The translations under genes and the position numbers were made by a program. DNA of 62,827 nucleotides, counting the filler, from Kipferlia bialata (taxonomy: Eukaryota): NCBI GenBank assembly GCA_003568945.1. It is 4 parts of 4 records of this genome, joined end to end, with 100 filler letters (N's around TTAATTAATTAA, not from the genome) between each part and the next. Parts side by side here need not be neighbours in the genome. Positions count along the whole stretch, not along the records: positions 22,841 to 45,507 come from BDIP01000284.1; 3 more parts are not named here. The stretch is one strand, 5' to 3'. Shown one piece after another: positions 3,677-62,816 of the stretch (positions are counted from its first letter, which is position 1; each line of letters opens with the position of its first letter). The notes under the pieces were generated by a model. It ran no database searches and was not told the origin of the DNA. It was given only the letters and a program-made list of their open reading frames with translations.

Positions 3677-6600
3677 ATGGAGGCAGACGACTCCTCCGTA
3701 CCACAGGATTGGGCTGAGACCAGCTCCGTCCTGGTTTCCCTTGTGGAGACCATATGGGCTACTCTGGACCCCTCTAACATTGAGGAGGCTCAGTTAGATG
3801 ATGTTCCAGAGCTCTCTGCCATCCCAGAGCTGCTGGCAATGGTGGATGAGACCATTCAGAGCGATCCTACCCCTCAGAGGCTGAGGTTCCTGCTATTTGA
3901 GCTCCCCCACAACCTGGTGAGTGTTTCCGACTGTGACTACTATCCGCTTTGCACTCATACAGCTATACATCTGTACTAAGGTGACCTCTATGCATATATA
4001 TTATTGTCTGGTGAACAGGTGGGGTGATGTGTAAGCGTTGTGATAGTATACTGGACACATTTCAGTCATACTGAATGCCTGTCTCAATATATCACTGATG
4101 TGGTTCCTCTGCCATTCACACGATGTCGCATTCTGCTGCACTATTTCCAATGTCATTTGAGTATAGCTGTGTCTATGGACCGGAGTTGTGCATTGTGTGT
4201 CTTTGTTCTGCTTGACATATGATCTGACCTAACTTCCAGATCCGTCTTCTGTGCACTCTGATGAGTGACGACATGTACAACCACATTGACTCCCACACAT
4301 CCATGCAGGATGTGAACCAGACCCGCACAGTCTCCATGAGCGTCCTCTCCAGGTATAGCTTCGTCACTCTCTCTACCCATAGTACTTTGTGAGTGTATAT
4401 ATATGAGTCCACTCATCTACAGGACCTTTTCTGTGTGTTCCAGCCACACTGCCGAGACCCTCGCCTCAGAGATGTTCCCCCAACTCTATGCCTCCCTCAG
4501 CACTGATCTCATGAGGGAGTTCCTGAAGGCCGGTGAGTCATGTGTTCTCGAGAGAACAGCATATATCGTAGTGTATATATACCACTGCCATTCACCCCAG
4601 GTGGACTGAACAGTGTCATCTCTGTCCTCAGTGGAGAGGTGTCCATCGATGTCGACGAGGCACCCCTCAAGTGAGTATCGTCTCTCTCTCTCTCTGTCTT
4701 GTTACTCCTTGTAGCACCCTCTCATTCACACTCATGTGTGTATTCATTGTCCTATTCATTTTGTATGTATATCGAGAGTCCCAACACTCACCTCTTGGCG
4801 CATCCGCCTCATGTCCAGTATATGTATATCTATATCAATGTGTATATCATAGTATGTACATGCTAACATGCAGGCGCATCCGGCTCATGGCCGCTGGGTG
4901 CATCAGGGCTGTGCTCAAGAGCGATGCCGGCCTGACCGCTCTGTCCGTGCCCCCTGTCATGCAGGCCCTGGTGGCAGTGGCATCGGAGGAGGCAGACGCA
5001 GAGCTCAGGTAGGGATGGATATATAGAGCTATTGTAATATTTATATATATAGGGCTATTGGCATGCAGGCCCTGGTGGCAGTGGCATCGGAGGAGGCAGA
5101 CGCAGAGCTCAGGTGTGTACATAGAGTATGTACCCACATGGAGATACCTTTGCGTCCTATCAGTCCACCTGATACTCACCCCTAGGCAGTGGGCCCTTGT
5201 CCTCCTCCGTGACCTCACTGGTCACCTGCACTCCTCCAAGGTGTTCCAGAGCCCCCCTCTCCTCCTGAGGTGTGTAGTGCCATATGGATATATATATATG
5301 TATATACTCATTCACATACATGAGTATGGGGAGTAGTCTCTCTCTCTCTCTCTCGATCTATATATATATATGTGTCTCCCCTTGACCCCAGGGCTGTACG
5401 CACCCTTGTGGAGAGTGGCACAGCTGAGTGTGCCATCATGTCTCTGTGCCTAGACACATCGGAGGCAGTCAGGGCAGAGGGTGAGTGTGTTCACTATATA
5501 TCTCTACTATATGGATATATATATATATACACACATACATGTATATATATGTGTGAGCGCCATTATGTCTCTGTGATCGACGGCAGTCAGGGCGGAGGGT
5601 GCGTGTGTTTAGTATGTACACAAGTATTCATGTTCTCTTTCTCTATCTAGCTAAGGTGTCACTCTCACCCCCAGGCTGCGGTCTTCTGTCCGAGCTTCTC
5701 CTGGCTGCTGAGGACTGTGTCGTCTCTGCCCAGGAGAGATACGCACAGGGTGGGTGTATTTGGCGTGTTCAATGATATCTATACTGTTACTTATATGCAT
5801 GGGGTGGGTGTATTCGGCATGTTCAGTACTCAGCAGTGGTGTTTCTGTGTAGACTATGTACCTCTACTGTGTCCGTCTGACCCCCAGATGTGATGCAGGC
5901 ACAGAAGGACACCGAGAGGCTGCTGGCAGAGAGGGAGAGAGAGGTACGAAAGCAATGTCTCTCCCCCTTTCTCTATATATATAGTATACATACATACCCT
6001 CTCACCCCAGGGTGCCGACCCCGACTCCCCTGCCCCTGTGGTCTCTGGACCCAGTGACGCCACAGCTGTCGGGGCCAGGGAGCTTCTGGATAGGTATATA
6101 TATATTTCTTGACAGTGTATGCCAAGAGTAAGCATCCTCCCTTACCCCCCAGGCTCCTGCTGTCTGTGATCAGTGACCGCACCAGACCCACCCTGGACGA
6201 GGGAGAGGGAGAGGGAGAGGAGGCCCAGAGGCAGTTCAGCACGGCCCTGGTGGAGAGGATGGGTCTGGAGAAGTCCAGGATAGGCCTCGAGGCCCTGCTC
6301 TACCTGCTGTGCACCCTGCTCAGGGTGTCTGCCAGGTACAGTGTATATTTATATATATATATGTATATATTAGTAGAAGTAGATATACAGTAGTACATGG
6401 TGTACAGTGTTACCTGATTAGATTGTATATACTGACCCCCAGGCGTGCCCAGTCCAGCCCCCTCACCCTGTCCCTGCCCCCTACATACGAGGCATTCTGC
6501 GGGGAGGCACCTTCCATGGACGAGGGTGCGTATACAGCGACTCTCTCCCTTATGTATTAGCCTCTTCCTCACCCGTGGGTGCCTCTATGCCTTATGTATT

Positions 6601-6951
6601 AGTGTGTCTCTCACCCTTAGATGCTGAGACCCGTATCACTGAGGCCTTTGAGGCATTCATCGGAGTGCTCCTCGACCAGGTATTCACACACATATTTAGA
6701 TATGATATTACTCTCTCATAGATACATTCCACACTGACAGAGTACCCCTCTTCCCACCCCCTTCTCACCCTGTGCTCCCATTCTCATATCCATTATAGAT
6801 GTACTCACTCATATATGCTAACTCCAGGCCCCCATCCTCAAGATGCTCAAGCTGGTGTCCTCTCCCTATGTGGTCATCGGTGCACATGCTGCCAGGTATA
6901 TATATATATATACATATATATATACCTACAACACCTGTGTTCTCAGTGATT

Positions 6952-22687: not shown

Positions 22688-22739
<52 letters not shown>

Positions 22740-22740
22740 T

Positions 22741-22840
22741 NNNNNNNNNNNNNNNNNNNNNNNNNNNNNNNNNNNNNNNNNNNNTTAATTAATTAANNNN
22801 NNNNNNNNNNNNNNNNNNNNNNNNNNNNNNNNNNNNNNNN
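22741..22840. other. Artificial scaffold-concatenation linker
   Basis: N44-TTAATTAATTAA-N44, giving stops in all six frames. Confidence 0.97.
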
Positions 22841-22851
22841 ATATATATATA

Positions 22852-25800: not shown

Positions 25801-26111
25801 GGGCATGCGAGTGGATGCCGGTCTAGTGGTTAGATAGAGGTGCAAGCATGTCTAAGCGTAGAAGTATAACACAAGATACTACATATATTGAAGAGGGGGG
25901 GGGGGGGTGACAACATATATTCACACTCAACTATACACTACACAGGAGACCCACACATATGCCAATCCTCCCTCAGCAAGCAAGTAGCGGTATAACCCAA
26001 GTACACACAATGTGACATGGAGATACATACACAATATCGCCCTTCACATGCCTCTCCTTTACACTCATACACCTCTCAACTCACCAGAATGTCATTCAGA
26101 ACGTCCCGCAT
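22852..26111 (-). CDS. Mirror copy (left arm) of the 5' part of the gene starting at 36166
   Basis: Reverse complement of 36166-39425. Confidence 0.6.
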
Positions 26112-26222
26112 GGGACTACGCTAAAGGAACTAAGTCAATACGCTACTATCCCTATAGCCTCTGCAGTGTAAATAGGCTGTGTCAAATCACACAGGTGAGC
26201 TGATTGTTTTTTGCTCCATAAC

Positions 26223-26231
26223 TACACCCTT
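26223..26231. promoter_or_regulatory. Recurrent T(A/G)CACCCTT motif in a 240-bp divergent promoter
   Basis: The same motif lies near gene starts at 1467, 3559, 10203, 10264, 17369, 19814, 55663 and 62171. Confidence 0.5.
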
Positions 26232-26350
26232 TGTATACCATCAAGAAACAACACATAAAGGGTCTGGTGCCACAGTGCTTTCTCTAAGAGACAGCTGAAG
26301 ACTCCGAACCCAGGCTAGTGTTGCATAGCGTGTCACGCTGAGTGTGTGAT

Positions 26351-26996
26351 ATGGCTAGAAGAGCACCGCCAAGACCGAACAAGACGGCATTCAGGAGGTG
26401 AGTGTGCACTTGTGATGCATTGATTGAAGGCTTGATTGATATACAAGTCATAAAGTGAAAGGTAGTGTAGAGGGGGGAGAGGGCTGAGAGACAGAGGGGG
26501 AGGTTCAGCGTGTGTGAAGATGTCTGGTACCTGAGAGGAGCACTTCCCTTCTTCTAGTACTTCCATCTGCCGTCTCTCTATCCCACCTAGTAAACTTCCA
26601 TCTCTCTATCATTTTCTGCTGCCTAGTGAACTGTGTCCCCCCCCCCCCCAACCCCTATGGACCCCTACTCCACTATTATATGACATCCTTACGTGTGTGT
26701 ATGTAGATTGAGGGCCACTTGATCTACCTCACCAACTGTCTCCTGCTGTCTCTCTCTCTCTGTCAGGCTGTCTCTCTATCTCTCCGTAACACCATTCTCA
26801 CCCAGCCCTAGGGACCCCTTCAAATCTAAGCTTAGCACCGTCCTTCTATATGTTTTACTATTGTACTTCTATATTATTTGGATATTTGTCTTTATGTATT
26901 CATATTCTAAGTCTATGTCTTACACTCAGCCCTGTGGACCCCTCTAACTCCACTGCACTGACGGCACCAAGGACACCACAGGTACATGAGTATATG

Positions 26997-27035
<39 letters not shown>

Positions 27036-30008
27036 TTCAAGTTATTCGTCAGTCATCATCCCCCCCCCCCCCTCACTCTTCTAGCTCTGCCTATCTATAT
27101 GTATATATATAAGGTTTATATCTCGTTGATCCCGTGGTCATGCCAATATCCACAGCTATATTGTAAATATCTAAACACAAGTAATAATCAGTGTTATCGT
27201 TTACTTCCACAGTACCTTCTGTGCCTGTGTGTATATTACTATTAATTAATCATATATCTCTATCTCTTAATTATTAATTATATATCTCACCTCGGCGCCC
27301 CACCCGTATCATATATGTGTGTTTCTATATATGAGTCATCATTGTATTTATTACTTCCATAGTACCTTCTTGTGCATATTTGTTTCTCACCTCAGCGCCC
27401 CACCACCCGCGTCACTACACCATCGAGGCATGGCAGCACATCTAGGAGGTGAGTATATATATATATATATATATATAATATATTTGTGTGTATATATTCA
27501 AGTAAATGTGCATATAAATGAGGAATATATATATGTGTGTATGTGTGTGTATGTATACTACCCCATCGAGGCATGGCAGCACATCTAGGAGGTGAGGGTG
27601 ATTATACTTTTGTATATACTCTCTAGAGTAATTATTGGCATATGGGAGTTAACCCCTTCAGGTGCCCTTTGCACATAGTATGTATATGTTTACACACCCA
27701 CATAATCATGTTATCATATATCTACCATGTAATCATTATATATAGACATTCCCACCCGTCAGGCGTGCCTCCTCTGCCCAGATTATGTATATATATATTT
27801 ATATATATCTCCCTTTGTTAGGTGTGTATTTATGTATGAAAATACAATACAATACATTTGACTTACTTATGTTTATTCCATCCCACCCTTCAGGCGTGCC
27901 CCCTCTGCCCAGAGTCCCAACCCACTGCTGGCATCACCAGGTACTACTATACAGATGATATATACTCTATGGGGTATTATATACATATATATAGTTATGT
28001 GTATCCCAACCCATTGCTGGCATCGCCAGGTAGCCTATGATTTTTTGGATATGGATAATAATGAATACTTCTGTAATATCCCGGAAGATACTACTGTGTG
28101 AGTCCCAAGCAACTGCTGGCAGCACCAAGTACTAATAATCTCTTTATACATGCATATATGCGATGGCTTACCTAACGTCTGATCCATTAGTTATTGTCTA
28201 TATTGTATTATCCTTGTCCATCTAACCCCCCAGCCGTTGATGTGATTGGGGGCATGTCCACCAACAAGCCATTCCACAAGCAGACAAGGTACGTATATAC
28301 AGTGTTATCCATATATTGTAATCATATGTACTAACGAGGTCTTCCACAAGCAGACAAGGTACACAGATACATGCAGTCATTCATCAATACTTCCTTCATT
28401 AGTAATCATGTGCCATTATTCTAACACCAGATGCTGTAACTCCTTCCTCCGGTTCTTCAGCATATGTACTTACTCATTATATAGGTTAAGTATATACCCT
28501 CGCTTAGTGAATAGTTGTAACCCAAGGTGCTGGGACTCCTTCCTCCGGTTCTTCAGCTCCAGACTGAGTATACAGTATTATATATGTCTATATTTATGCC
28601 AGTATTGTTCCCCTATATATACCTCTAACCCCAGGTGCTGGGACTCCTTCCTCCGGTTCTTCAGCTTCCAGACTGTCTGTAACCTGATATGTCTCTCGAT
28701 CACACTGGCTGGGATATGGCTCAGAATGGAGTACTCAAGTGAGTATTTATATATGTATTGCGTATATATGTATAGAATAACAGTGATTGTATATGTCTGT
28801 CCATCACTCTGGCTGGGATATGGCTCAGAATGGAGTACTCCAGTGAGTATATATATTAATGTATATATATATGTGTGTGTTTGTGTGTGTATATATATAT
28901 TTAGTTGTATGGCTCAGGATGGAGTACTAAAGTTTGTATGTACACAGTACAGTATTACTCAATTATATTATGTGCATACCTCTCTCCTTCTCTCTCTCTC
29001 TCTCTTTCCTTATCTGTATCTCTCTCCTTAGCCCCTTATTCCAGAGTCTGAGGAGCGGTGGCTCCAGATTGTGGCCAAGATGACCTTCACCGTTGGCATA
29101 TTCTCTCTGTCAGGAGGCGTCACCAACGCCATTGCCATCAAGATGCTCTTTGACAGGTATTATGTCTCTCTCTCTCTCTCCAGATATATATATATTGGGT
29201 ATATGTACATACATATCATCTGTGTATATATATATATATATGTATTTACAGGTATATATGTCGCTCCTGATCTCTACGTAATTATGTTATATTTGTACTA
29301 TGCTTCTTGACAGGTCCGGATATCTCTCCCTCTTTATATATATTTGAGTATTTGTGTATGTATGTGTGTCAGATGCTCTTTGACAGGTATGGATAGGTGT
29401 GTGTCATAGCATTCTCTCTCACTCTTCTCTCCCGCACGGACCCTCTTTCAGAGTGTATTTGGAGATTGGATGTTACGTACTTGTATATTTGTACGTCTCA
29501 TCTTTTATTTCCCAATGATAAGTACACTCTCTGTATATATACATGTATTTCTATATCTCTATAGTGTACATGCTCTTTCCTCAGGGCTCTCTCTCTCTGT
29601 CTCTCTCTCTCTCTATATATATATATATTGACATATATGCTCTTACCTCAGGATATACCTCATGCCCCGTCTGTCCCTTCCTGGTAGTGGTATTATCCCA
29701 GAGAACTTCCAGAGCATCCGGTATGTCAATTGTACAATATATACTATATGATCATTGCCATATTATCCACCCATTGACAAATTGTACATATATTATGATT
29801 TTCATTTTCATCATTGATTATATTTCTAACTTCTATTATTGATACTTACCCTCAGGACATCCATCAAGCGCATGGTCATGGCCATGTTCTTCACCCCCCA
29901 GTTCCTGCAGTACTACATCAACAAGAAGGTGGGTGTAAGTGCATACACATATATATTTCTATATATTAGACACTAAGTGTTTAGAATGAGTTGGTATTTT
30001 GATATGTA

Positions 30009-30039
<31 letters not shown>

Positions 30040-31064
30040 CACCTCACCTCTCTGTCTCTCTCTCTCTGTCTCTCTCTCTCTGTCTCTCACCCTCAGGCTG
30101 GTGAGCTGACCTCCTCTCTGCAACTGGACACAAGGTGAGTGAATTATTATATATACTTACTATTCTATATACTACTATTACAATATATATTATACTATTA
30201 CATACTATACTATTTTATCCATACACTCTCTGCAGCTGGACACAAGGTGAGTGATATTTTATAGTTCCTCTACTGTATATACTCGTCAAACAATACACTG
30301 TCTGCTGCTGGACAATTCAATATAACTTTTGCAAAGATAGATGGCACATACAATATAATATACTCACACTCATACCAGGCTGAGACAGCTGTTGGAGCAG
30401 GACAGCATCGACAAGATCATAGGCCAGGTGAGGAGGGTGCATTATGTATAGATTATATATTTATATATATATGTGTAATGTTTATAGTTTAGTGATAAGA
30501 TCATAGGCCAGGTGAGGGTATTATGTTTGTGTATGGATTCTCATATATATATATAGTTAAGAGAGCCTAATTTTTGTCTAGACTGTATATCTGCATCTTA
30601 CCACCAGAAGCTAGCCGAGCTCAATGCTAGGCCAGAGGGACTGGCATTTAGGTGTGTCCCCCACAGAAATGTTAAGTTTAGCATTGGAGTTATTGGACAC
30701 TGACCCTATTGTCACTAGAGATATCAATATTATTACTATATATCTAATTATCATGCTCGTCTGACCTATTCATAACGTAAACGTCGCTATATTTTACTGG
30801 AAGAATAGTATGGATTACTTGCCTGGCTCTAGAATGACGGGTATCATATGATAGGATATGTGTATTTTATATACTTTGTGGTACATTATACATACTGCGT
30901 GTCTGACTGTATGATGGGCATCATTTGATAAGATATACCACAACATACTATATATACCATATACATTATACACTGCGTGTCTGACTCTAGAATGATGGGA
31001 ATCACCACTGAGCAGCTGAAACCTGCCCTGAAGCCATTCTTGGTGTCATTTGTGTGTGACTTAG
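26351..31064 (+). CDS. DUF445-family membrane protein, at least 12 exons, 3'-truncated at the palindrome axis
   Basis: MARRAPP... start; two TM segments, then GIFSLSGGVTNAIAIKMLFDR|IYLMPRLSLPGSGIIPENFQSIR|TSIKRMVMAMFFTP and KLAEL...MMGITTEQLKPALKPF. This resembles DUF445 (GxxTNxLAIxMLF...GSGVIP). Confidence 0.8.
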
Positions 31065-31212
31065 GTGAGTAACTGACTGAGTAATATGGTTATTAGTAGT
31101 CATTTCTCTCGCTCTCTCTCCTTATTTGTATACATATATATATGTATACAAATAAGGAGAGAGAGCGAGAGAAATGACTACTAATAACCATATTACTCAG
31201 TCAGTTACTCAC

Positions 31213-32237
31213 CTAAGTCACACACAAATGACACCAAGAATGGCTTCAGGGCAGGTTTCAGCTGCTCAGTGGTGATTCCCATCATTCTAGAGTCAGACAC
31301 GCAGTGTATAATGTATATGGTATATATAGTATGTTGTGGTATATCTTATCAAATGATGCCCATCATACAGTCAGACACGCAGTATGTATAATGTACCACA
31401 AAGTATATAAAATACACATATCCTATCATATGATACCCGTCATTCTAGAGCCAGGCAAGTAATCCATACTATTCTTCCAGTAAAATATAGCGACGTTTAC
31501 GTTATGAATAGGTCAGACGAGCATGATAATTAGATATATAGTAATAATATTGATATCTCTAGTGACAATAGGGTCAGTGTCCAATAACTCCAATGCTAAA
31601 CTTAACATTTCTGTGGGGGACACACCTAAATGCCAGTCCCTCTGGCCTAGCATTGAGCTCGGCTAGCTTCTGGTGGTAAGATGCAGATATACAGTCTAGA
31701 CAAAAATTAGGCTCTCTTAACTATATATATATATGAGAATCCATACACAAACATAATACCCTCACCTGGCCTATGATCTTATCACTAAACTATAAACATT
31801 ACACATATATATATAAATATATAATCTATACATAATGCACCCTCCTCACCTGGCCTATGATCTTGTCGATGCTGTCCTGCTCCAACAGCTGTCTCAGCCT
31901 GGTATGAGTGTGAGTATATTATATTGTATGTGCCATCTATCTTTGCAAAAGTTATATTGAATTGTCCAGCAGCAGACAGTGTATTGTTTGACGAGTATAT
32001 ACAGTAGAGGAACTATAAAATATCACTCACCTTGTGTCCAGCTGCAGAGAGTGTATGGATAAAATAGTATAGTATGTAATAGTATAATATATATTGTAAT
32101 AGTAGTATATAGAATAGTAAGTATATATAATAATTCACTCACCTTGTGTCCAGTTGCAGAGAGGAGGTCAGCTCACCAGCCTGAGGGTGAGAGACAGAGA
32201 GAGAGAGACAGAGAGAGAGAGACAGAGAGGTGAGGTG

Positions 32238-32268
<31 letters not shown>

Positions 32269-35241
32269 TACATATCAAAATACCAACTCATTCTAAACAC
32301 TTAGTGTCTAATATATAGAAATATATATGTGTATGCACTTACACCCACCTTCTTGTTGATGTAGTACTGCAGGAACTGGGGGGTGAAGAACATGGCCATG
32401 ACCATGCGCTTGATGGATGTCCTGAGGGTAAGTATCAATAATAGAAGTTAGAAATATAATCAATGATGAAAATGAAAATCATAATATATGTACAATTTGT
32501 CAATGGGTGGATAATATGGCAATGATCATATAGTATATATTGTACAATTGACATACCGGATGCTCTGGAAGTTCTCTGGGATAATACCACTACCAGGAAG
32601 GGACAGACGGGGCATGAGGTATATCCTGAGGTAAGAGCATATATGTCAATATATATATATATAGAGAGAGAGAGAGACAGAGAGAGAGAGCCCTGAGGAA
32701 AGAGCATGTACACTATAGAGATATAGAAATACATGTATATATACAGAGAGTGTACTTATCATTGGGAAATAAAAGATGAGACGTACAAATATACAAGTAC
32801 GTAACATCCAATCTCCAAATACACTCTGAAAGAGGGTCCGTGCGGGAGAGAAGAGTGAGAGAGAATGCTATGACACACACCTATCCATACCTGTCAAAGA
32901 GCATCTGACACACATACATACACAAATACTCAAATATATATAAAGAGGGAGAGATATCCGGACCTGTCAAGAAGCATAGTACAAATATAACATAATTACG
33001 TAGAGATCAGGAGCGACATATATACCTGTAAATACATATATATATATATATACACAGATGATATGTATGTACATATACCCAATATATATATATCTGGAGA
33101 GAGAGAGAGAGACATAATACCTGTCAAAGAGCATCTTGATGGCAATGGCGTTGGTGACGCCTCCTGACAGAGAGAATATGCCAACGGTGAAGGTCATCTT
33201 GGCCACAATCTGGAGCCACCGCTCCTCAGACTCTGGAATAAGGGGCTAAGGAGAGAGATACAGATAAGGAAAGAGAGAGAGAGAGAGAAGGAGAGAGGTA
33301 TGCACATAATATAATTGAGTAATACTGTACTGTGTACATACAAACTTTAGTACTCCATCCTGAGCCATACAACTAAATATATATATACACACACAAACAC
33401 ACACATATATATATACATTAATATATATACTCACTGGAGTACTCCATTCTGAGCCATATCCCAGCCAGAGTGATGGACAGACATATACAATCACTGTTAT
33501 TCTATACATATATACGCAATACATATATAAATACTCACTTGAGTACTCCATTCTGAGCCATATCCCAGCCAGTGTGATCGAGAGACATATCAGGTTACAG
33601 ACAGTCTGGAAGCTGAAGAACCGGAGGAAGGAGTCCCAGCACCTGGGGTTAGAGGTATATATAGGGGAACAATACTGGCATAAATATAGACATATATAAT
33701 ACTGTATACTCAGTCTGGAGCTGAAGAACCGGAGGAAGGAGTCCCAGCACCTTGGGTTACAACTATTCACTAAGCGAGGGTATATACTTAACCTATATAA
33801 TGAGTAAGTACATATGCTGAAGAACCGGAGGAAGGAGTTACAGCATCTGGTGTTAGAATAATGGCACATGATTACTAATGAAGGAAGTATTGATGAATGA
33901 CTGCATGTATCTGTGTACCTTGTCTGCTTGTGGAAGACCTCGTTAGTACATATGATTACAATATATGGATAACACTGTATATACGTACCTTGTCTGCTTG
34001 TGGAATGGCTTGTTGGTGGACATGCCCCCAATCACATCAACGGCTGGGGGGTTAGATGGACAAGGATAATACAATATAGACAATAACTAATGGATCAGAC
34101 GTTAGGTAAGCCATCGCATATATGCATGTATAAAGAGATTATTAGTACTTGGTGCTGCCAGCAGTTGCTTGGGACTCACACAGTAGTATCTTCCGGGATA
34201 TTACAGAAGTATTCATTATTATCCATATCCAAAAAATCATAGGCTACCTGGCGATGCCAGCAATGGGTTGGGATACACATAACTATATATATGTATATAA
34301 TACCCCATAGAGTATATATCATCTGTATAGTAGTACCTGGTGATGCCAGCAGTGGGTTGGGACTCTGGGCAGAGGGGGCACGCCTGAAGGGTGGGATGGA
34401 ATAAACATAAGTAAGTCAAATGTATTGTATTGTATTTTCATACATAAATACACACCTAACAAAGGGAGATATATATAAATATATATATACATAATCTGGG
34501 CAGAGGAGGCACGCCTGACGGGTGGGAATGTCTATATATAATGATTACATGGTAGATATATGATAACATGATTATGTGGGTGTGTAAACATATACATACT
34601 ATGTGCAAAGGGCACCTGAAGGGGTTAACTCCCATATGCCAATAATTACTCTAGAGAGTATATACAAAAGTATAATCACCCTCACCTCCTAGATGTGCTG
34701 CCATGCCTCGATGGGGTAGTATACATACACACACATACACACATATATATATTCCTCATTTATATGCACATTTACTTGAATATATACACACAAATATATT
34801 ATATATATATATATATATATATACTCACCTCCTAGATGTGCTGCCATGCCTCGATGGTGTAGTGACGCGGGTGGTGGGGCGCTGAGGTGAGAAACAAATA
34901 TGCACAAGAAGGTACTATGGAAGTAATAAATACAATGATGACTCATATATAGAAACACACATATATGATACGGGTGGGGCGCCGAGGTGAGATATATAAT
35001 TAATAATTAAGAGATAGAGATATATGATTAATTAATAGTAATATACACACAGGCACAGAAGGTACTGTGGAAGTAAACGATAACACTGATTATTACTTGT
35101 GTTTAGATATTTACAATATAGCTGTGGATATTGGCATGACCACGGGATCAACGAGATATAAACCTTATATATATACATATAGATAGGCAGAGCTAGAAGA
35201 GTGAGGGGGGGGGGGGGATGATGACTGACGAATAACTTGAA

Positions 35242-35280
<39 letters not shown>

Positions 35281-35926
35281 CATATACTCATGTACCTGTG
35301 GTGTCCTTGGTGCCGTCAGTGCAGTGGAGTTAGAGGGGTCCACAGGGCTGAGTGTAAGACATAGACTTAGAATATGAATACATAAAGACAAATATCCAAA
35401 TAATATAGAAGTACAATAGTAAAACATATAGAAGGACGGTGCTAAGCTTAGATTTGAAGGGGTCCCTAGGGCTGGGTGAGAATGGTGTTACGGAGAGATA
35501 GAGAGACAGCCTGACAGAGAGAGAGAGACAGCAGGAGACAGTTGGTGAGGTAGATCAAGTGGCCCTCAATCTACATACACACACGTAAGGATGTCATATA
35601 ATAGTGGAGTAGGGGTCCATAGGGGTTGGGGGGGGGGGGGACACAGTTCACTAGGCAGCAGAAAATGATAGAGAGATGGAAGTTTACTAGGTGGGATAGA
35701 GAGACGGCAGATGGAAGTACTAGAAGAAGGGAAGTGCTCCTCTCAGGTACCAGACATCTTCACACACGCTGAACCTCCCCCTCTGTCTCTCAGCCCTCTC
35801 CCCCCTCTACACTACCTTTCACTTTATGACTTGTATATCAATCAAGCCTTCAATCAATGCATCACAAGTGCACACTCACCTCCTGAATGCCGTCTTGTTC
35901 GGTCTTGGCGGTGCTCTTCTAGCCAT
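31213..35926 (-). CDS. Mirror copy (right arm) of the DUF445 gene fragment
   Basis: Reverse complement of 26351-31064. Confidence 0.7.
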
Positions 35927-36165
35927 ATCACACACTCAGCGTGACACGCTATGCAACACTAGCCTGGGTTCGGAGTCTTCAGCTGTCTCTTAGAGAAAGC
36001 ACTGTGGCACCAGACCCTTTATGTGTTGTTTCTTGATGGTATACAAAGGGTGTAGTTATGGAGCAAAAAACAATCAGCTCACCTGTGTGATTTGACACAG
36101 CCTATTTACACTGCAGAGGCTATAGGGATAGTAGCGTATTGACTTAGTTCCTTTAGCGTAGTCCC

Positions 36166-39100
36166 ATGCGGGACGTTCTGAATGACATTCTGGTGAGTTG
36201 AGAGGTGTATGAGTGTAAAGGAGAGGCATGTGAAGGGCGATATTGTGTATGTATCTCCATGTCACATTGTGTGTACTTGGGTTATACCGCTACTTGCTTG
36301 CTGAGGGAGGATTGGCATATGTGTGGGTCTCCTGTGTAGTGTATAGTTGAGTGTGAATATATGTTGTCACCCCCCCCCCCCCTCTTCAATATATGTAGTA
36401 TCTTGTGTTATACTTCTACGCTTAGACATGCTTGCACCTCTATCTAACCACTAGACCGGCATCCACTCGCATGCCCGGTCTGTCCCCCCCCATCCCCTCC
36501 TCCTTCTGTATATATGGGTGTATATTGTTCTCTAACCATCAGACCGGCATCCACTCGCATGCCCGGTCTGTTACGGGTGACAGTCCCAGACACCCCTCTG
36601 CCTCTGTCCCTAGGGTGTCACCATCCATCACACACCACTTTGGACAGCTGGCATTGTTATGCGTGAGGTATGTATATATCACACACACCTCTTTGGACAG
36701 CTGACTCTGCTGTGTGTGAGGTATTAAGAGTGTATGATATATATATGATGGACATTCCACCTACCCGACGCTCTCTTTGCCACTGAGACACTTCCTCTCA
36801 TTCAGTGAACTTTCTCTCTCGTCCTCTCTCTCCCCCTCTCTCTCTCCCTCTCTCTCTCTCTCTATATATATATGTATATATATGTATTCACTGATACTGA
36901 TACCATCTAATCAATAGGACCAGTGACGCTCTCTTTGCCACTGAGACTCGGATGTTCTCAAGGGAGGGGAGTGTGTCTAGTACATTTGACAGGGACCATC
37001 TGGAGAGGGGTAACAGGCTGTCAGAGAGTGAGAGCGAGGGGGAGAGAGAGGCCCTGCCACCACCCCTCACACCCACAGAGAGCAGCATAGATATACGTGT
37101 CGGGGTAGGAGGAGAGGGGGAGGGGGAGGGGGAGGGAGAGGAGCTGTTTCCGATGGTGCTCTCTCTGTCCAGCCCACTTACCAGGTAATCTCTCTCTATA
37201 AGTCATAGTCATAGTATAATATGTACATATAGTGCAAATATGTGTACTCCTTTGACACATTCTGAGTGGCCACTCTCTCTCTTTCTATACACATCCACAA
37301 ATATATATATAGCTATCTGACTGCCAGGCATATCCTGACCTGCTATATATGTATGTAAAGTACATAGTATATAGTATATTATATATGTAGTATAATCTGT
37401 CTTACCCTGAGGCATATCCTGACCTGCTATACATATATACATAGTACATAGTACATAGTACATAGTATATTATATATGTTTCTTAATCTGTCTTATTTGC
37501 AGGCATGGATGGCCAACAGACAATGATTTGTATATATATAGTGTATATATGTAGTACATTATGTAGGTTATATATACATATAACCCTTAGGCATATCCTG
37601 ACGTGCTTTGTGCTGGATGGCCACCAGACACTGACACATCTACACGGGGCAGTGGTATCAGAGGTATGTATTGAACATATAATATATGAAGTATATACAT
37701 AGATATTTTGTATTTACCTTTATACTAACCCCAGCTCATGTCTGGCAACCCCCCTGATAGCTACGACGTTTAGTGTATATGTGTTTATTTACACGCTATG
37801 CACTTTCTCAGTCTACACTCTTGCAGTCTTATATTAACATCACCTCATGTCTGGCAACCCCCTGCCCTTATATGTTATGCATATATACACTTACGGTCTT
37901 CTTAATGTATTTACCTATATATATTGACCTATATACTGACCCCAGCTCATGTCTGGCAACCCCCTGCCCCATGTAGTAGAGTGTATATTACACGTATACA
38001 TTAACCATCTGCTATTATTTATTTACCGATATACTAACCCCAGCTGATGTCTGGCAACCCCCTGCCCCCGCTAGTGAGTGATGCATTCAATGGATGTGTG
38101 CAGTTACTAAAACAGGTATCTTAGTGTACTACTATATATATAGGTACATGTATATTGTATTGTATACAGATGTGTTCCTTGTGAGTGATGTATTCAATGG
38201 ATATGTACATCTGTTAAAACAAGTAAGATATGGTTTAGTGATTTACTACACTAGATACGTATGACAGATGTGTCAATGTCTTGAGTGATGCATTCAACGG
38301 ACGTGTACATCTGATAAATATATATATAATACAATATAATTATATTTATAAATGTATTTTATTACAATATATATAATACATCTGGTGAAGCAGATGAGAG
38401 ACGAGGTATACATTTAGCATACATGAATATATATATCCCTTGATAGATGCATTCAATACATACGTCCATCTGTTGAAGCAGGTAAGAGTGTTTGTATTGA
38501 TATGTATATACTTTGAGTAGCTGGGCAAGTACATGTTGTGTATATAACACTCAGGTCATGGTCCTGTCAGGGACTCATATATATATGTATATATACGACA
38601 TTTTTCATATATCTTGTGCATATACTAGTATTGATTCCTAGGTCATGTCCCTGGTCAAGGACTCACATATATTCACATACACATATATATACACACATTT
38701 TATTATTATATACATTTAAATATTATATATACTAGTAATTAACACCCCAGGTCATGTCCCTGGTCAAGGACTCCGACACTGGGCGTCCCTTCCCGACCCC
38801 ATCGGTGACTAGGAGGGAGAGGGAGAGAGAGAGAGAGAGAGAGACATACAGGGTGCCAGACACCACTCAATGGTATGTAGTGCTATCAATAGCAACAGTG
38901 TGTATAGCAATGTATATACTTCATCCATGTTTTCACCCCATCGAGGATGACCTCGGTCAGTATCAGTGGGCTCTATATGTATATCATCTATATATATTTA
39001 TATATATATATGACACTGACACTAGGTATGGTCCCTCTGAAGAGACAACCGACATCGACCAGAGGAGAATGTCTGTCAGTGGCTGGTCGCCATTTGGGTC

Positions 39101-42100
39101 TAGGTACATAACTATTCATTCATGTGCATCTTGGCTGTTCTAAATACTGTTCCCACAGGGACAAGACCCCAACATATGTGTATATAGAGTAGAAATTCCA
39201 TATTCTTACAATGATAATTGGTATAATATGATTCACCAACATATCTAATCGCTGTTCACACCTCTCAGGGACAAGACCCCCCAGCATATTGTATTGCTAG
39301 TACCTCTGTGTTTTCTAATCTTTCAGGGACAAGACCCCCCAGCGCCCCTCTCACAACCGCAGCAAGAGACTGTCCATCCCATCCACCGAGAGACTGAACC
39401 CTTTATCGTTGTTGGAGGCATCAGGTATATATATATNNCACCGAGAGACTGAACCCTTTATCGTTGTTGGAGGCATCAGGTATATATATATATTAATAAT
39501 GTAGATATTCCACCGAGAGATGGAACCCTTTGTCACTGTTGGAGGCATCAGGTGTGATTATGTATACATCATAAATGATTGATATAGGATAAATGCAGAG
39601 ATATATACTAATACATAGTGTCTACAGAGACACTGAACCCTTTGTCGTTGCTCGCAGCATCAGGCATATTGTATATACATATAGTTAAGACAGGGTATAT
39701 TGGTACCCTCTTTTGAGATGTCTCTCAAGTAGGTGTCTCTTGTGTTTTCTCTCTATACATGTATCGATATATATAGCTATAGTTCTGTATAGTAGTTATC
39801 TTTGTGTATGTATATATAGCTAATCCCCAGGAAAGGGCAACCAGAGAATCTAATATACGTGTATATGTACATATATACATATATATATCTCATAGTATAT
39901 GTGTTAGTCTAATCAGTAGTTTAGTAGTATATACATATAGTATATATATGTGTTAGTCTTATCAGTAGGTAAGGGCAACCAGCTCAGAGAGAGTACATAT
40001 ATGTAAAGTATATACGTATACGTATCAATGTACATATATTCAGTTTCATTAGTAGTTTACATATCGATAGATATGTTAGTCTTATCAGTAGGTAAGGGCA
40101 ACCAGCTCAGAGAGGCCATTGAGAGAGAGCTTGAGAGAGAGAGACTGGGAGAGAGCCAGAGAGAGAGCAGCGCAGTGTGGCTGAGCGAGCCAAGGTAACG
40201 CTTCTCTCTCTCTCTCTGTAAAAAAGAAAAAATTAATTCTTATCTTCTCCTCGTCTATCCCCTCTATCCTCTCCGCCTAGCCCCTTTTATACCAGTTATA
40301 GTGGTACCCAGGGCCAAGAGGACTCCAAGTCGTCCAAGCCTGACCTTCCATTTCCACCCACAGATGCAAGGTATCAACAAGCTCTCTATAGTAGTTCATA
40401 TTCACCTGTTTGATACATAAATATTCCCAAATCTTATATATATACTCAATCTTGGATATGAACCCTCACCCTTCGAAATACTTCATATATATAATTCCCC
40501 AACCCTTAGAGTCCTTTGGAAGAGGGAAGGTATCAAGGTCCTATTAATTGCAGCATCCAGTTTATTGTGTTATATTCCCCTCACCCTCAGGGTGCTCAAG
40601 AAGACCCTGTCTGAGTATGAAGGCACCACAGACCCATATGAACGGTGCTTCACAGACGACTTCCTCAATAGGTGGGGATATCTCTCTCTCTCCCTCTCCC
40701 ACTCTGCGTGTGTGCGTCACTTTAGGCAACCCAAGTTTGAGGTGTCTCTCTAATTCCCTATATCTACCTCACCCTAGGCTACAGGCCACGCACCTCCCCA
40801 TGTATGAGAACATCTCTCTCTCTCTCTGTCTCTCTATCTCTCTCTCTCCCTCTCTCATTTTAGGCTCCAAGCGACGCACCTCCCCATGTATGAGAACATT
40901 GTACACACTGGCACTGGTGTTGTCAGTGTCAAGAAGGGAACGGTGACTGGGAAGAAGTATTACAGGTATATATATGTGTGTGTGTGTGTTTAAGTCTTTT
41001 AGGAGAGTATAATAGGTAAGAATATTTCTGTATGTGGTAAGGATATATGGTAAAATAACATATCTGAACAGACCTAACCCCAGCGCTGCCCTTGTCATCA
41101 CCAACCGCCGTCTCCTTCTGCTGGACCCCTATTGTCTGCCTGAGCCTGAGGACCAGTCCCCCAGTCCATCGCCACAGAGTGCATCCAGAAGTCACAGCAG
41201 GTATATAGTGTGTATACGATATACCTATATATAGATACTCTATTATATGATGTATTATATGTTTGTTTGTTCTCGTCCCCACAGAGTGCATAGCAGGTGA
41301 GTACTGTGTATATATACTATGTATAATATACAGTGTATAATATATCACCCGAGACTGCATCCAGGAGTCACAACATGTATATAGTGTGGATCTATCACTC
41401 TATGTGTCTTTAGTATAATTCTCACAGTCACGAGGAGCAGTCTAGCTGAGACTGTTTGTCATCACATGTATTGTATCCATAAATATCTCACACTAGGCGT
41501 GGTTCTCTAGCTGAGACTGTGGGTCACCACCGTAAGGGCAGGGGCATATATATATATGAATGTCTATATAGTCTGACAAGCAGGAGAGGTTCCCTNNNNN
41601 NNNNNNNNNNNNNNNNNNNNNNNNNNNNNNNNNNNNNNNNNNNNNNNNNNNNNNNNNNNNNNNNNNNNNNNNNNNNNNNNNNNNNNNNNNNNNNNNNNNN
41701 NNNNNNNNNNNNNNNNNNNNNNNNNNNNNNNNNNNNNNNNNNNNNNNNNNNNNNNNNNNNNNNNNNNNNNNNNNNNNNNNNNNNNNNNNNNNNNNNNNNN
41801 NNNNNNNNNNNNNNNNNNNNNNNNNNNNNNNNNNNNNNNNNNNNNNNNNNNNNNNNNNNNNNNNNNNNNNNNNNNNNNNNNNNNNNNNNNNNNNNNNNNN
41901 NNNNNNNNNNNNNNNNNNNNNNNNNNNNNNNNNNNNNNNNNNNNNNNNNNNNNNNNNNNNNNNNNNNNNNNNNNNNNNNNNNNNNNNNNNNNNNNNNNNN
42001 NNNNNNNNNNNNNNNNNNNNNNNNNNNNNNNNNNNNNNNNNNNNNNNNNNNNNNNNNNNNNNNNNNNNNNNNNNNNNNNNNNNNNNNNNNNNNNNNNNNN

Positions 42101-44841
42101 NNNNNNNNNNNNNNNNNNNNNNNNNNNNNNNNNNNNNNNNNNNNNNNNNNNNNNNNNNNNNNNNNNNNNNNNNNNNNNNNNNNNNNNNNNNNNNNNNNNN
42201 NNNNNNNNNNNNNNNNNNNNNNNNNNNNNNNNNNNNNNNNNNNNNNNNNNNNNNNNNNNNNNNNNNNNNNNNNNNNNNNNNNNNNNNNNNNNNNNNNNNN
42301 NNNNNNNNNNNNNNNNNNNNNNNNNNNNNNNNNNNNNNNNNNNNNNNNNNNNNNNNNNNNNNNNNNNNNNNNNNNNNNNNNNNNNNNNNNNNNNNNNNNN
42401 NNNNNNNNNNNNNNNNNNNNNNNNNNNNNNNNNNNNNNNNNNNNNNNNNNNNNNNNNNNNNNNNNNNNNNNNNNNNNNNNNNNNNNNNNNNNNNNGTGTA
42501 TGGGCCTGGGGGCCAGTCCGGCACTGACAAGGAGTAAGCACAGAAAGGTACTCTATGTATTTTCCATATGCTTACATATATTTGTAATTTCGTATAAAAT
42601 CAAACATATGAAAATTCAATACAGTCCTCTGTAGTTTTAGTGGGAGTACCCTTTCAGCATCTCCCCTTACTCTCTATCTCTCCCTTTAGCTACATATACA
42701 TACTCATACCAGTCCTCTGGCAGTAACAGTGGGAGTGCCAGTGCTCTTGCTGCGTCTGAGCCACTGCCAGACAACTGCCTCAATGGTATGAGTATACTAT
42801 TATATATACTATTATACTATTATATATATATATATATATAACTGAGCCACTACCAGACAACTGCCTCAATGGTATGATGCAACGATTACTCTATACTATA
42901 TGTTTATGTATATATCTCCAATTCCCAGGTGTCATTGACCTATCCACTGTAGTCACTGTATACTGTAGTTTCCTACATATATACATATTTGTGTATGTAG
43001 CTATTATACTTATCATATCTGACAATAGGTGTCATTGACCTATCCACTGTAGTCACTGTCTCCTCCAAGGAGAAGGGACCCGGTCTCACGTGTATAGTGC
43101 TTACACTGAGGGTATGACGTGTTTTCCTCTTCCCATAGCCTGGTACTCATGAGTCCATTGTTCTAAGCTGTTACCCCCCCCCCCCATCTCCCCCTCAATC
43201 TATATTTGTATACATATGTGTGGGTATTCATACAAGTTTTTCTAACCCCAGGATACTCCCACCCGGCATGGCATCCACCCCCCATCCAGACTGGTCACCT
43301 CCTGTGCATCGGACCACTCCACACACACACTCAAGATACTTGTATCCAGGAGGGTGGCTCAGGTGTATACAGATGTAGAAGACAAATATTATATTTATAT
43401 ATGAATATATATATATAATTATTTAGTTAGTGGTAAAATAGATACATCACACTCAAGAGGTATCTATACATATATATATGTATATATAGATGTACTTAAC
43501 CCCAGGACATCAAGCTCCTCCTCCTGGCCACATTCAATGAGAGGGCAGCGGAGAGACAGCAGTACATATCTCAGGTATGCACAGTATTCATATATATTGA
43601 TATATACATTTTCTCTCTCTACATTTCATATTGTTCTCTCACTCCCTAGGCGACTAGCCGGTCAGAGTCTGGTCTAGTCTTCGACTTTGTATGCCGGCTG
43701 GCCCACTCAGCCGTACGCTGTACGTCCACCGTTCGTAGAACGTCAAAGGAGCCGACCTCCTTTATGGTTGTGCCTGGTGACCCCCTCTCTCTCTCCCCCT
43801 CCCCCCTCTCCACATTGTGTGACATGCATAGTGTGAGGAGTCCAGGTGACGTGTCAACACTATTCGGTGATGATCAGACAGAGGAAGAGACAGGGAGAGA
43901 GAGGGGTAGCAAGGATAAGAAGAAGAAGGTGGTTGCAACCAGCAAGACTGGAGAGAGAGAGGGTGATGTGGTGATTGAGGGTATCAGTCACGGTGTCAAG
44001 GCCGTGACGTTCATAGTACGCCAGGGGGGCAAGGTCTACTCTGCCTCTCTGGATCTTAGCGCCATATCCCACCCTGGTACGGTTCTGTCTTCAGATGTAT
44101 GAATACATGTAGATTGTCTCTCTCTATATATATAGACTTCACATTGTTTTCAGGATTTGGCCTAACTTGGCTACATATGTATTGTGTGTGTGTATACCTG
44201 AGGTATGTATACAATATTCGTACATTTACTAACTGTAGGTCTCAACAGTGGCAGTGGTGTGTTTGACTCTGGCACCGCTGTGACAGATGACAGGGTGGGG
44301 TACAAGGGGACGGCATTCGTGCTATCAGCCGAAATGACAGGTATATATATACTCTATACTAGTCTAATTATTTGTCACAGTGTATATTTGTATATATGTA
44401 TGAAGAGAGAGAGAGGGGGTGGGGTACAAGGGCACAGCATTTGTCAGCGAGATGACAGGTATATACTGATACAGTTCTCTTCATCAGTATATATTTATGT
44501 AAATAGATGGATGGGGTGCGAGGGAACAGTCTTGTCCACTGAAATAGGTAGGTTCCCAATATTTTTTTGTATCATACCGATGTCCCTTACCCCCAGGCTG
44601 GCTAGTTCTTGAGAATATAGTATTGATATATTGTTATTAAGAATAATATAATACATTATTATCTGTTTGTATCATACCGATGTCCCTTACCCTCAGGCTG
44701 GCTAGTTCTTGAGGAGTTCCCCTCCACCCCCTCCCCCTCCACCATCGATGTGCACAGAGAGAAGGAGAGAGAGAGTACGGAGAAGAAGCCACTCAACCAC
44801 AGCCCCTCTGCGCCTAAATCCCCACCATCCAGGTACTGCAA

Positions 44842-44880
<39 letters not shown>

Positions 44881-45450
44881 CACCCCTAATATCAGAGCGT
44901 GGCTGACGAGTGACTCCCCCGGTGTATACTCTAGGAGCACTGAGTCTCTGCTGTCTCTCTCATACTCATCCCCCGGACCAACGCCAATGCACAGCAGAAT
45001 AGGTATATTATGTGTATAGTATACACAAATTTGTGCAATATCATACATCTGCCTGACCCCCCCCGGGCCGGTCTGACTTATTGAAATATAGTATTACTCA
45101 ATGTATGTAAATATTTCTCCTATCTGACGAATAATATTGGTGTCCTCTCTCTATATATACATTGTATTGTTAGATACATATATGTACATCTGACCCCAGG
45201 CCGGTCTGACCGGGACAGGCGGCATCGGATGCCGAGGACACCCCAGGTGAATATTGTGGTGCAAATATTTCTGGATATATACTATATATATTGTACTATA
45301 TATACTATATATATTGTATATAGATACCTATGATGCCAATGACACTCCAGGTGATTATTTATATACATACATGTATATGTGTATAAATATATGTATGCGT
45401 ATGTATTCATATACACTAGGTTTTCATTTCTGATCCCAGGAGGTTCTCCG

Positions 45451-45507: not shown

Positions 45508-45607
45508 NNNNNNNNNNNNNNNNNNNNNNNNNNNNNNNNNNNNNNNNNNNNTTAATTAATTAANNNNNNNNNNNNNNNNNNNNNNNNNNNNNNNNNNNNN
45601 NNNNNNN
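45508..45607. other. Artificial scaffold-concatenation linker
   Basis: N44-TTAATTAATTAA-N44. Confidence 0.97.
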
Positions 45608-45924
45608 GGTGCGGCAACTACACCTTCGACCTCCCCGCTGCCCAGGACGCCGACCAGCAGCTATACGTCGTGCCCCACAACGCCACTCCAGTACGTAGTC
45701 TAGTTGTGTATAAGCACTCCATCTACCTAAGACCTACTTAGCTCAACGGCCCCTTCTCACCCTAGTGCGTCGGACACGTGTCCCCCTACCACATTGTGTC
45801 TCCCACATTCAAGATCACCACCGACGGTCCCGTTGGAGCAGCCTTCACCAGCAAGTACCTGTCCGGCCTCCTGATTGTGGTGGCCGTCAACGTGGTGGCC
45901 TCTCTGGTACTGGCAATCCTGTAG
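45608..45924 (+). CDS. 3' end of a probable surface/membrane-anchored protein (2 exons)
   Basis: CGNYTFDLPAAQDADQQLYVVPHNATP|CVGHVSPYHIVSPTFKITTDGPVGAAFTSKYLSGLLIVVAVNVVASLVLAIL*: a terminal hydrophobic tail (GPI-signal- or TM-like) and an NYT sequon. Confidence 0.65.
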
Positions 45925-46118
45925 AGGACAAGAGAGTGAGGAAGAGAGGAAGAGAGAGAGTGAGAGCGAGAACGAGATAGATGAATGAGTTTGGGTCACT
46001 TTGGGCATGGTAGAATATGATGATCTATTCTGTACACCACCACTGAAACACATTGCACAATAACAACACAAAACTAATAGGAATGGTTCTTCTGAATATG
46101 TGAATGACTGGATACATC

Positions 46119-55566: not shown

Positions 55567-55593
55567 CTCAGGCCGGTGTGTGTTCAAGTCGGC

Positions 55594-62784: not shown

Positions 62785-62816
<32 letters not shown>

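What the first reader, a model, noticed from the sequence alone, without database searches (positions are those of the whole stretch)
36639..40900. Echoes differ from the real exon mostly at synonymous positions
Seen: 40778 cta cag gcc vs real 40864 ctc caa gcg (LQATHLPMYENI in both; all 3 differences silent). 36639-36667 ttg tta tgc vs echo 36692-36720 ctg ctg tgt (LLC kept). LLKQ is tta cta aaa cag (38104), ctg tta aaa caa (38211) and ctg ttg aag cag (38470). tta tcg ttg (39402) vs ttg tca ctg (39529). Echo a gtc ctt (40509) vs g gtg ctc (40591). ctg vs cta (42763/42849). Non-synonymous changes and indels also occur, mainly in more decayed copies. Neutral decay of a dead intronic copy should not favour third positions. 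Inference: either the echoes were or are translated (alternative exon ends, gene-conversion cassettes), or they are exon ends captured from diverged alleles. One route is break repair that copies the homolog's exon end and intron start and then rejoins, leaving the old end as an echo, which would imply recombination between divergent haplotypes.
Basis: partly seen in the sequence, partly recalled or inferred. Interest (0 to 1): 0.85.

Follow-up and report, generated by a model that had tools for sequence, protein, structure and literature searches.

The report
Intron echoes of alternative exon ends
In the free-living Giardia relative Kipferlia bialata, many introns carry spare copies of the neighbouring exon's end that differ from the working exon mostly at silent codon positions, likely leftovers of DNA-break repair that copied a diverged allele, which would be a trace of outcrossing in a group where sex has not been seen.

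Summary
The echoes are real. The window is Kipferlia bialata. In three modelled genes, 42 intronic echoes copy an adjacent exon (22 of 46 introns); 35 junction-anchored ones were analysed further. Each has a median 24 nt of exon end, usually with an intact GT or AG, and adds about 100 nt to its intron. DNA contigs show the 37148-38805 arrays in cis; two RNA contigs skip the echoes they bridge.

Mismatches fall 29/27/69 on codon positions 1/2/3; 67 of 125 are silent, against 27% for neutral decay.

Echo splice signals differ from the live ones at 39% of positions yet score almost as well. Translation is unsupported: 0 of 42 have a splice path.

Best reading (0.5): aborted homology repair on a diverged allele, finished by end-joining. 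Main rival (0.3): self-duplication plus fast intron turnover. No second haplotype was found.

The parts
36166..45246 (+). Gene B, hypothetical protein, at least 23 exons, one ORF on each side of an assembly gap (41596-42495); annotated in pieces as KIPB_001887 and KIPB_001889
   Evidence: RNA contigs
36543..36667 (+). Live exon 2
   Evidence: RNA contig piece 36542-36665 adjacent to 36916-37098; P0004
36455..36483 (+). Acceptor-side echo of exon 2, 29 nt identical, AG kept
   Evidence: #17
36682..36720 (+). Donor-side echo of exon 2, 5 silent/2 replacement differences, GT kept
   Evidence: #18, 65
36767..36789 (+). Echo of exon 3 start region (23 nt identical, not junction-anchored)
   Evidence: #19
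37328..37526 (+). Three acceptor-side echoes of exon 4 (37328, 37412, 37506)
   Evidence: #20-22; inside DNA contig 37148-38805
37591..37663 (+). Live exon 4
   Evidence: P0004
37735..37983 (+). Three acceptor-side echoes of exon 5 (37735, 37844, 37946), all CTC where the live exon has CTG
   Evidence: #23-25
38044..38115 (+). Live exon 5 (ends in LLKQ)
   Evidence: ORF continuity; no RNA contig piece listed here
38178..38481 (+). Donor-side echoes of exon 5 (38178, 38282, 38441; a short fourth at 38382 seen by eye)
   Evidence: #26-28, 18, 65
38555..38664 (+). Two acceptor-side echoes of exon 6 (38555 decayed, 38642 identical)
   Evidence: #29-30
39159..39285 (+). Two acceptor-side echoes of exon 8, each with a different acceptor sequence
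   Evidence: #31-32, 39
39327..39424 (+). Live exon 8
   Evidence: RNA contig length consistent
39509..39663 (+). Two donor-side echoes of exon 8 (39509: 4 silent/1; 39621: 5 silent/3, GC donor)
   Evidence: #34-35, 54, 65
39833..39991 (+). Two acceptor-side echoes of exon 9 (39833, 39969)
   Evidence: #36-37
40778..40814 (+). Acceptor-side echo of exon 12, 4 silent differences, own CCCTAG acceptor
   Evidence: #38, 65
40864..40965 (+). Live exon 12
41276..41376 (+). Two donor-side echoes of exon 13 (41084-41200)
   Evidence: #39-40
42625..42964 (+). Echoes of exons 42713-42785 and 43029-43111 (42625, 42842, 42929)
   Evidence: #41-43
44417..44613 (+). Echoes of exons 44239-44340 and 44697-44832; skipped in an RNA contig
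   Evidence: #44-46, 13, 65
26351..31064 (+). Gene A (DUF445, KIPB_001886), 13 exons, echoes in 9 of 12 introns; the same gene mirrored on the minus strand at 31213-35926
3677..6895 (+). Gene C on another contig, 14 exons modelled by ORF continuity only; echoes at 4798, 5059 (54 nt, 1 mismatch, unrelated intron start) and 5552
   Evidence: #49-51, 39

Best explanation
The echoes are intronic copies of exon ends with their own splice signals, and they are likely scars of aborted homology-directed break repair that used a diverged allele of the same gene as template. Inferred steps: (1) a break near an exon end is repaired by strand invasion into a homologous chromosome whose exon is similar but whose intron is not; (2) synthesis copies the exon end and runs some tens of bases into that allele's intron (total tract about 100 nt); (3) the extended end cannot anneal across the unlike intron and is joined back by polymerase-theta-type end joining; (4) the new end becomes the working exon end and the old end, with its old splice site, is left in the intron; (5) the protein is unchanged because the exon-nearest splice site is used, so the event is tolerated, the echo decays, and repeats of the event stack echoes with the newest nearest the exon. 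Silent differences are then allele differences present at birth (about 8-10% of silent sites) and replacement differences are mostly later decay. Shown here: the anatomy, the cis arrangement of one array cluster, the skipping in two RNA contigs, and the statistics. Not shown: the template, the repair pathway, or sex.
For: pN/pS 0.18-0.26 in 32-36 junction-anchored echoes under four trimming rules, family-bootstrap upper bounds 0.33-0.39, P(0.5 or more) 0.0005-0.0026; excess silent divergence pS-2pN = 0.08-0.10, CI above 0. Self-copy simulations through the same pipeline give medians 0.54-0.66, and 0 of 400 reach 0.22 in each of three settings. Of 35 echoes, 12 differ only silently and 4 only by replacements. 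Intron flanks are far more divergent than exon parts: identity 0.41 at +7..+20 (unrelated donors 0.30) and 0.39 at -15..-30 (0.30), yet GT is kept in 18 of 20 and AG in 19 of 24. Echo splice signals differ at 39-40% of non-invariant positions but score 1.6 vs 2.0 (donor) and 2.9 vs 3.4 (acceptor), against -1.3 and -9.0 for random intronic sites; the drop is smaller than a self-copy predicts (P=0.055 and 0.0015). 40 exon-derived echoes against 22 intron-only repeats, most of the latter attached to junction echoes. Proximal echo scores higher than the most distal in 11 of 14 families, lower in 2, tied in 1. Intron length rises 100 nt per echo, r=0.73, 46 introns. K. bialata lacks Rad51A and Rad54 and has PolQ (PMC8516963 supplement rows); fornicates lack Ku-type end joining and use Dmc1 paralogs (passages); Dmc1 tolerates mismatches (PMC8682777 abstract); aborted SDSA plus TMEJ makes tandem duplications in C. 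elegans helq-1 (PMC8654963 passages).
Against: No second haplotype: DNA contigs list only 2 other letters over 13.7 kb, both beside the NN artefact (contigs drop variants, so this is weak), and each protein cluster has 1 member. With unanchored local alignments it weakens: gene A 15/41, gene C 4/10, 38/84 without the six quoted echoes (P=0.29), 63/133 at the looser threshold (P=0.1); one trimming gave CI 0.18-0.65. Echo-to-echo differences are not silent-enriched (9 silent, 14 not). Alleles would need introns much more diverged than adjacent silent sites (54 nt with 1 mismatch beside an unalignable intron at 4955/5059), which needs exon-limited conversion or fast intron turnover as an extra assumption. 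Spacers show no excess of locally templated snippets, a polymerase-theta hallmark (23 spacers vs 21 control segments, P=0.26). The splice-score test overcounts differences where C-tract indels shift register. Only three genes of one window were tallied.
Confidence: 0.5

Rival explanations
1. Self-templated (sister-chromatid or slippage) tandem duplications across splice junctions, identical at birth. The echo decays neutrally, the live exon drifts silently, AT-rich intron parts turn over quickly or are partly new sequence, and the rest of the silent excess is chance and post-hoc choice of region.
For: Explains much of the third-position bias (42% expected). Silent differences are GC/AT-symmetric (10:11) while replacements are GC>AT biased (17:6), as this model also predicts. 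9 of 16 young echoes have spacers similar to the matching intron part. If the old junction is the echo, its good splice score needs no allele.
Against: Predicts pN/pS of 0.5 or more; observed 0.18-0.26 with 0 of 400 simulations at 0.22 or below. Needs intron flanks to diverge roughly tenfold faster than echo sequence in the same intron. Cis gene conversion does not lower the 0.5 bound (my derivation, not a tool result).
Confidence: 0.3
2. The template was a paralog or segmental duplicate elsewhere in the genome (ectopic repair), not an allele.
For: Gives the same silent excess and foreign intron ends.
Against: Protein searches returned only the gene's own product (1 of 730, 1 of 10, 1 of 5829 candidates); no variant exon letters in DNA contigs at 90% likeness or more. 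The assembly is fragmented and could not be searched whole.
Confidence: 0.06
3. Error-prone copying: the new copy becomes the live exon end, and selection keeps only events whose errors are silent.
For: Gives silent-only differences at birth and old, functional splice sites on the echo.
Against: Needs about 8-10% error per silent site per event, far above repair-polymerase error rates as I recall them (not checked here).
Confidence: 0.05
4. Echoes are translated alternative exon ends or selected gene-conversion cassettes.
For: Amino acids are often kept; the annotation ends KIPB_001887 on the 37735 echo; one echo has a net in-frame 6-nt deletion (44419).
Against: 0 of 42 have an in-register GT/AG swap path; an in-frame stop at 28908-28931 and frameshifts; 3 of 9 indels are multiples of three, as chance gives (sizes read by eye); two RNA contigs skip the echoes they bridge.
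Confidence: 0.04
5. Assembly artefact: two haplotypes stitched in tandem.
For: The contig has proven artefacts: an exact 8.3-kb mirror and an exact copy across NN at 39437.
Against: Independently built DNA contigs run through echo arrays with 0 differences and 0 gaps (37148-38805, 33723-34710, 43498-44831) at depths of 379-415. The 40778 echo and its exon lie on separate listed contigs, broken at a CT repeat.
Confidence: 0.02

Closest known systems
Tandem duplications from aborted SDSA finished by polymerase-theta end joining (C. elegans helq-1, PMC8654963, passages read; BRCA1-type, PMC12309385, search listing only)
   Same: Direct duplication of sequence next to a break; the proposed pathway; K. 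bialata has PolQ and lacks Rad51A/Rad54.
   Different: There the usual template is the sister, so copies are identical. Here copies differ silently, the spacer is not a faithful copy, the unit is about 100 nt, and survivors straddle splice junctions.
Human F7 IVS7 37-bp VNTR spanning the exon 7-intron 7 boundary (PMC1557585, abstract read)
   Same: Repeated exon-end plus donor units in the intron, silent pseudo-sites, first donor used.
   Different: F7 has regular units with pseudo-sites identical in sequence at one locus. Here spacing is irregular (53-277 nt), spacers are often unalignable, both donor and acceptor sides are affected, and 22 of 46 introns carry them.
Intron gain by tandem genomic duplication and intron transfer (review PMC3443670, passages read)
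   Same: Short intragenic duplication involving splice signals; recombinational transfer of intron sequence between gene copies.
   Different: No new intron is made; an existing intron gains an extra end and about 100 nt.
Introners / transposons with target-site duplications (PMC9860276, search listing only)
   Same: A direct repeat flanks a spacer that begins with GT or ends with AG.
   Different: Spacers form no shared family, and the repeats are 14-54 nt and differ silently.

Membership tests
Aborted-SDSA/TMEJ tandem duplication | Direct repeat of sequence flanking the break | tested here: met
   42 direct echoes; median first period 104 nt
Aborted-SDSA/TMEJ tandem duplication | Whole unit copied identically from the sister chromatid | tested here: not met
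   Shared intron part median 8 nt vs exon part 24 nt; silent excess
Aborted-SDSA/TMEJ tandem duplication | Microhomology or templated insertion at the junction | tested here: inconclusive
   No excess of local snippets (P=0.26); microhomology untestable without the template
Aborted-SDSA/TMEJ tandem duplication | Dependence on polymerase theta | not testable with these tools
   PolQ listed for K. bialata in PMC8516963 Supplementary Data 2
Junction-spanning VNTR (F7 IVS7 type) | Regular, near-identical repeat units | tested here: not met
   Periods 53-277 nt; 7 of 16 young spacers no more alike than chance
Junction-spanning VNTR (F7 IVS7 type) | Pseudo splice sites stay silent; exon-nearest site used | tested here: met
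   Two RNA contigs skip echoes at 36682, 36767, 44417, 44509, 44597; contigs only, minor isoforms not excluded
Intron gain by tandem genomic duplication | New intron formed between duplicated AG|GT sites | tested here: not met
   Echoes lie inside existing single introns
Introner / transposon insertion | Shared element family at many sites | tested here: not met
   17 short matches in a 25% sample of intron pairs, no family; window only
Alternative or mutually exclusive exon ends | A splice path that swaps the echo for the live end in frame | tested here: not met
   0 of 42
Alternative or mutually exclusive exon ends | Echo sequence in spliced mRNA | tested here: inconclusive
   Absent from the two informative RNA contigs; no raw reads were offered
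Inter-allele (homeologous) repair product | Echo variants exist as alleles in the species | not testable with these tools
   One sample only; no second haplotype; metagenome scan gave 5 distant DUF445 loci at 29-42%

The most novel reading that the evidence does not exclude
Kipferlia introns are a stacked archive of former alleles: a Rad51-less, Dmc1-only repair system copies exon ends from homologues about 8-10% diverged at silent sites, swaps intron ends and leaves the displaced ends in order of age. One clonal genome would then record outcrossing, population diversity and repair-tract length (about 100 nt) in a lineage where sex has not been observed, and the process would be a main driver of its intron length.
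Probability: 0.4. Interest if true: 0.82.

Novelty: new variant of a known kind. Interest (0 to 1): 0.6.

Why it matters
Neither sex nor parasex has been directly observed in Metamonada, although meiotic genes are kept (PMC8516963 passage). If echoes are displaced alleles, thousands of them across about 125,000 introns (PMC5874029) would make outcrossing, past diversity and repair-tract length measurable from one genome with one tally. Even under the duller rival, the echoes explain intron growth (about 100 nt each), mislead gene annotation, and show that this reduced spliceosome passes over intact decoy donors and acceptors, which suggests exon definition (inference).

Tried and rejected
No whole genome was held, so the genome-wide tally could not be run. 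No run was listed on record as RNA; the one used is a guess and is kept as contigs; bins without RNA cover (37598-38511, 39426-39882) are not used as evidence. The HMMER search of protein representatives gave no result. The metagenome scan found no other Kipferlia strain (5 loci of 101 stretches, 29-42% identity). Pfam named only gene A (DUF445, below the gathering cut-off; 1 of 9 queries). The repeat finder was swamped by TA/GA repeats. Clustering of silent differences near the splice site was not significant (37 of 67 in the near half; silent vs replacement P=0.07). Distal echoes did not show higher pN/pS than proximal ones (0.31 vs 0.31; trimmed 0.42 vs 0.31 with wide CIs). CpG context does not explain the excess. 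AT content did not track echo number (P=0.15). The 12-of-14 polarity test used a miscount; the right tally is 11 better, 2 worse, 1 tie (P about 0.011, by hand). Hit #12 (29748) looks like a chance match: it stays in the tally and is excluded from the anchored set. Literature searches and four look-ups of earlier findings showed no description of these echoes; the library lacks most subscription papers, and the supplements of PMC5874029 were not read.
Full report
Source and layout. Protein searches with three exons each returned one annotated Kipferlia bialata protein on a 22,667-nt contig, which equals window 22841-45507 between two N-linker joins. Bases 22841-31140 are an exact reverse complement of 31137-39436 (8300 of 8300), so each echo there was counted once. 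An exact copy across the NN at 39437-39438 was dropped as a scaffolding artefact.

Gene models. Gene A (DUF445; 13 exons) and the 3' half of gene B were fitted exactly to the annotated proteins. The 5' half of gene B and gene C were built by hand and give stop-free ORFs with GT-AG at every junction; gene C rests on ORF continuity alone. RNA-type contigs support gene B: one joins 36665 to 36916, another has gaps of 100 and 70 nt exactly as modelled, and its upstream length fits exons 7-12 ending in a GA repeat. These contigs skip the echoes they bridge. The run is only guessed to be RNA, and contigs hide minor isoforms.

Echo catalogue. Each exon was aligned, blind to codons, against its two flanking introns. 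A score of 13 or more occurs in 0.55% of 2180 non-adjacent pairs. 52 hits scored 11 or more; 42 scored 13 or more after removing the artefact. They sit in 22 of 46 introns (A 9/12, B 5' 8/12, B 3' 2/9, C 3/13), and intron length rises by 100 nt per echo. Donor-side echoes are exon end + GT downstream of the live donor; acceptor-side echoes are AG + exon start upstream of the live acceptor. Elsewhere in the window near-repeats are scarce (0-0.9 per kb against 2.3-6.5 in this contig; 1.3 in 1-7009), so the trait is patchy. DNA contigs built independently of the assembly cross echo arrays with no differences, so those are real and in cis.

Silent excess. Pooled, 67 of 125 mismatches are silent and 69 fall on third positions; neutral decay predicts 27%, and wrong frames give 13-27%. 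The proper null is stricter. After a self-duplication the live exon gains silent changes too, so about 42% silent, or pN/pS of 0.5 or more, is expected. Against this, local alignments give P=0.004 (unique differences 0.025; looser threshold 0.022 and 0.1) and pN/pS 0.31, CI 0.21-0.47. Extending outward from the splice site avoids junk tails and gives 0.18-0.26 with upper bounds of 0.39 or less; simulated self-copies through the same steps give 0.54-0.66 and none of 400 reaches 0.22. The result survives removing shared differences and CpG sites and, marginally, the six quoted echoes (P=0.03-0.08). Echo-echo differences were 9 silent and 14 not. I rate the evidence for difference at birth as moderate.

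Intron side. If echoes were plain tandem copies, the intron part should match about as well as silent sites do. It does not: the shared intron stretch has a median of 8 nt against 24 nt on the exon side; identity beyond the consensus is about 0.40 against 0.30 for unrelated sites; 7 of 16 near-identical echoes have spacers no more alike than chance, and 9 have spacers that are similar but only 58-76% identical. Yet echoes keep GT (18 of 20) and AG (19 of 24), and their differing splice signals score nearly as well as live ones. Each echo looks like an exon end with its own once-working intron end. Where intron parts align, substitutions are 25 of 183 (14%, biased low), between the two models' predictions.

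Mechanism. The anatomy fits a break near an exon end, invasion of a homologue, synthesis into its unlike intron, failed annealing and end joining. The new end works, the old end becomes the echo, and later events add echoes at the exon-proximal side, as the polarity suggests (11 of 14 families). The successful outcome of the same pathway would convert exons only, which could keep exon alleles similar while intron types stay deep; this is inference. The gene inventory is compatible: no Rad51A or Rad54 and PolQ present in K. bialata (supplement rows), no Ku, Dmc1 paralogs in all fornicates examined, and a haploid prediction for Carpediemonas membranifera (passages). Dmc1 tolerates mismatches (abstract). 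Aborted SDSA plus TMEJ yields tandem duplications in worms (passages). None of this shows the pathway acting here; no polymerase-theta patchwork signature was found and no second haplotype was seen, as expected if the clone is haploid, which I could not test.

Rivals. Self-duplication with fast intron turnover explains much and is not excluded (0.3). Translation is unlikely (0 of 42 splice paths). Paralogous templates, error-prone copying and assembly error are minor.

Known systems and novelty. Nearest are HR-abort tandem duplications and the F7 junction-spanning VNTR; the membership table shows which features fail. The genome paper's main text has no occurrence of 'duplicat', 'heterozyg' or 'ploid' (passages only, supplements unread), and five searches found no account of such echoes. 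Papers seen: PMC5874029, PMC8654963, PMC3443670, PMC6679479 as passages; PMC8516963 as passages and supplement rows; PMC1557585 and PMC8682777 as abstracts; PMC12309385 and PMC9860276 as listings. Verdict: a real, apparently undescribed intron architecture, a new variant of repair-born tandem duplication, with a roughly even chance that it records diverged alleles. Interest 0.6.

Noticed in passing
window 22841-31140 and 31137-39436: Exact 8.3-kb inverted duplication; probably a misassembly, since an RNA contig of gene A is 2424 nt and runs far past the mirror point while the annotated protein ends by reading through a donor site.
   Followed up: partly
window 22741-22840, 45508-45607, 59854-59953: N-flanked stop-codon linkers: the window is four contigs joined.
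   Followed up: yes
window 39384-39491: Exact 53-nt duplicate across NN; scaffolding overlap, not an echo.
   Followed up: yes
window 37735-37772: The public annotation ends KIPB_001887 on this echo, splitting one long gene into pieces; echoes likely corrupt gene models in this genome.
   Followed up: partly
window 37704-38043 and 44566-44696: Intact upstream acceptors, one identical over 14 nt, are passed over for the last one, and first donors are used; this suggests exon definition in a reduced spliceosome (87 of 174 proteins, PMC6679479).
   Followed up: partly
window 38382-38405: Short echo reading LVKQMRDE before a GT, four codons longer than the live exon end; possibly a version with a shifted donor.
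   Followed up: no
window 38178-38481: The exon-5 donor echoes share His-Leu codons where the live exon has Gln-Leu with other codons, so the live end is the odd one out.
   Followed up: partly
window 41441-41530: Repeat pair before the assembly gap; likely echoes of, or part of, an exon in the gap (139 nt of exon unaccounted for, 52 visible).
   Followed up: partly
window 18248-22740 and 45608-62827: Genes here have short introns and almost no echoes; the cause of the patchiness is unexplained.
   Followed up: no
window 1841-1959, 5739-5825, 56181-56366: Further junction echoes in unmodelled genes or below threshold; not counted.
   Followed up: no
window 11541-14400: Gene with repeated C2H2-like motifs (read by eye) and an internal exon-to-exon repeat at 11541/12430.
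   Followed up: no
window 27201-27370: Intronic repeat pair with acceptor-like ends that matches no annotated exon of gene A; possibly a missed micro-exon and its echo.
   Followed up: no
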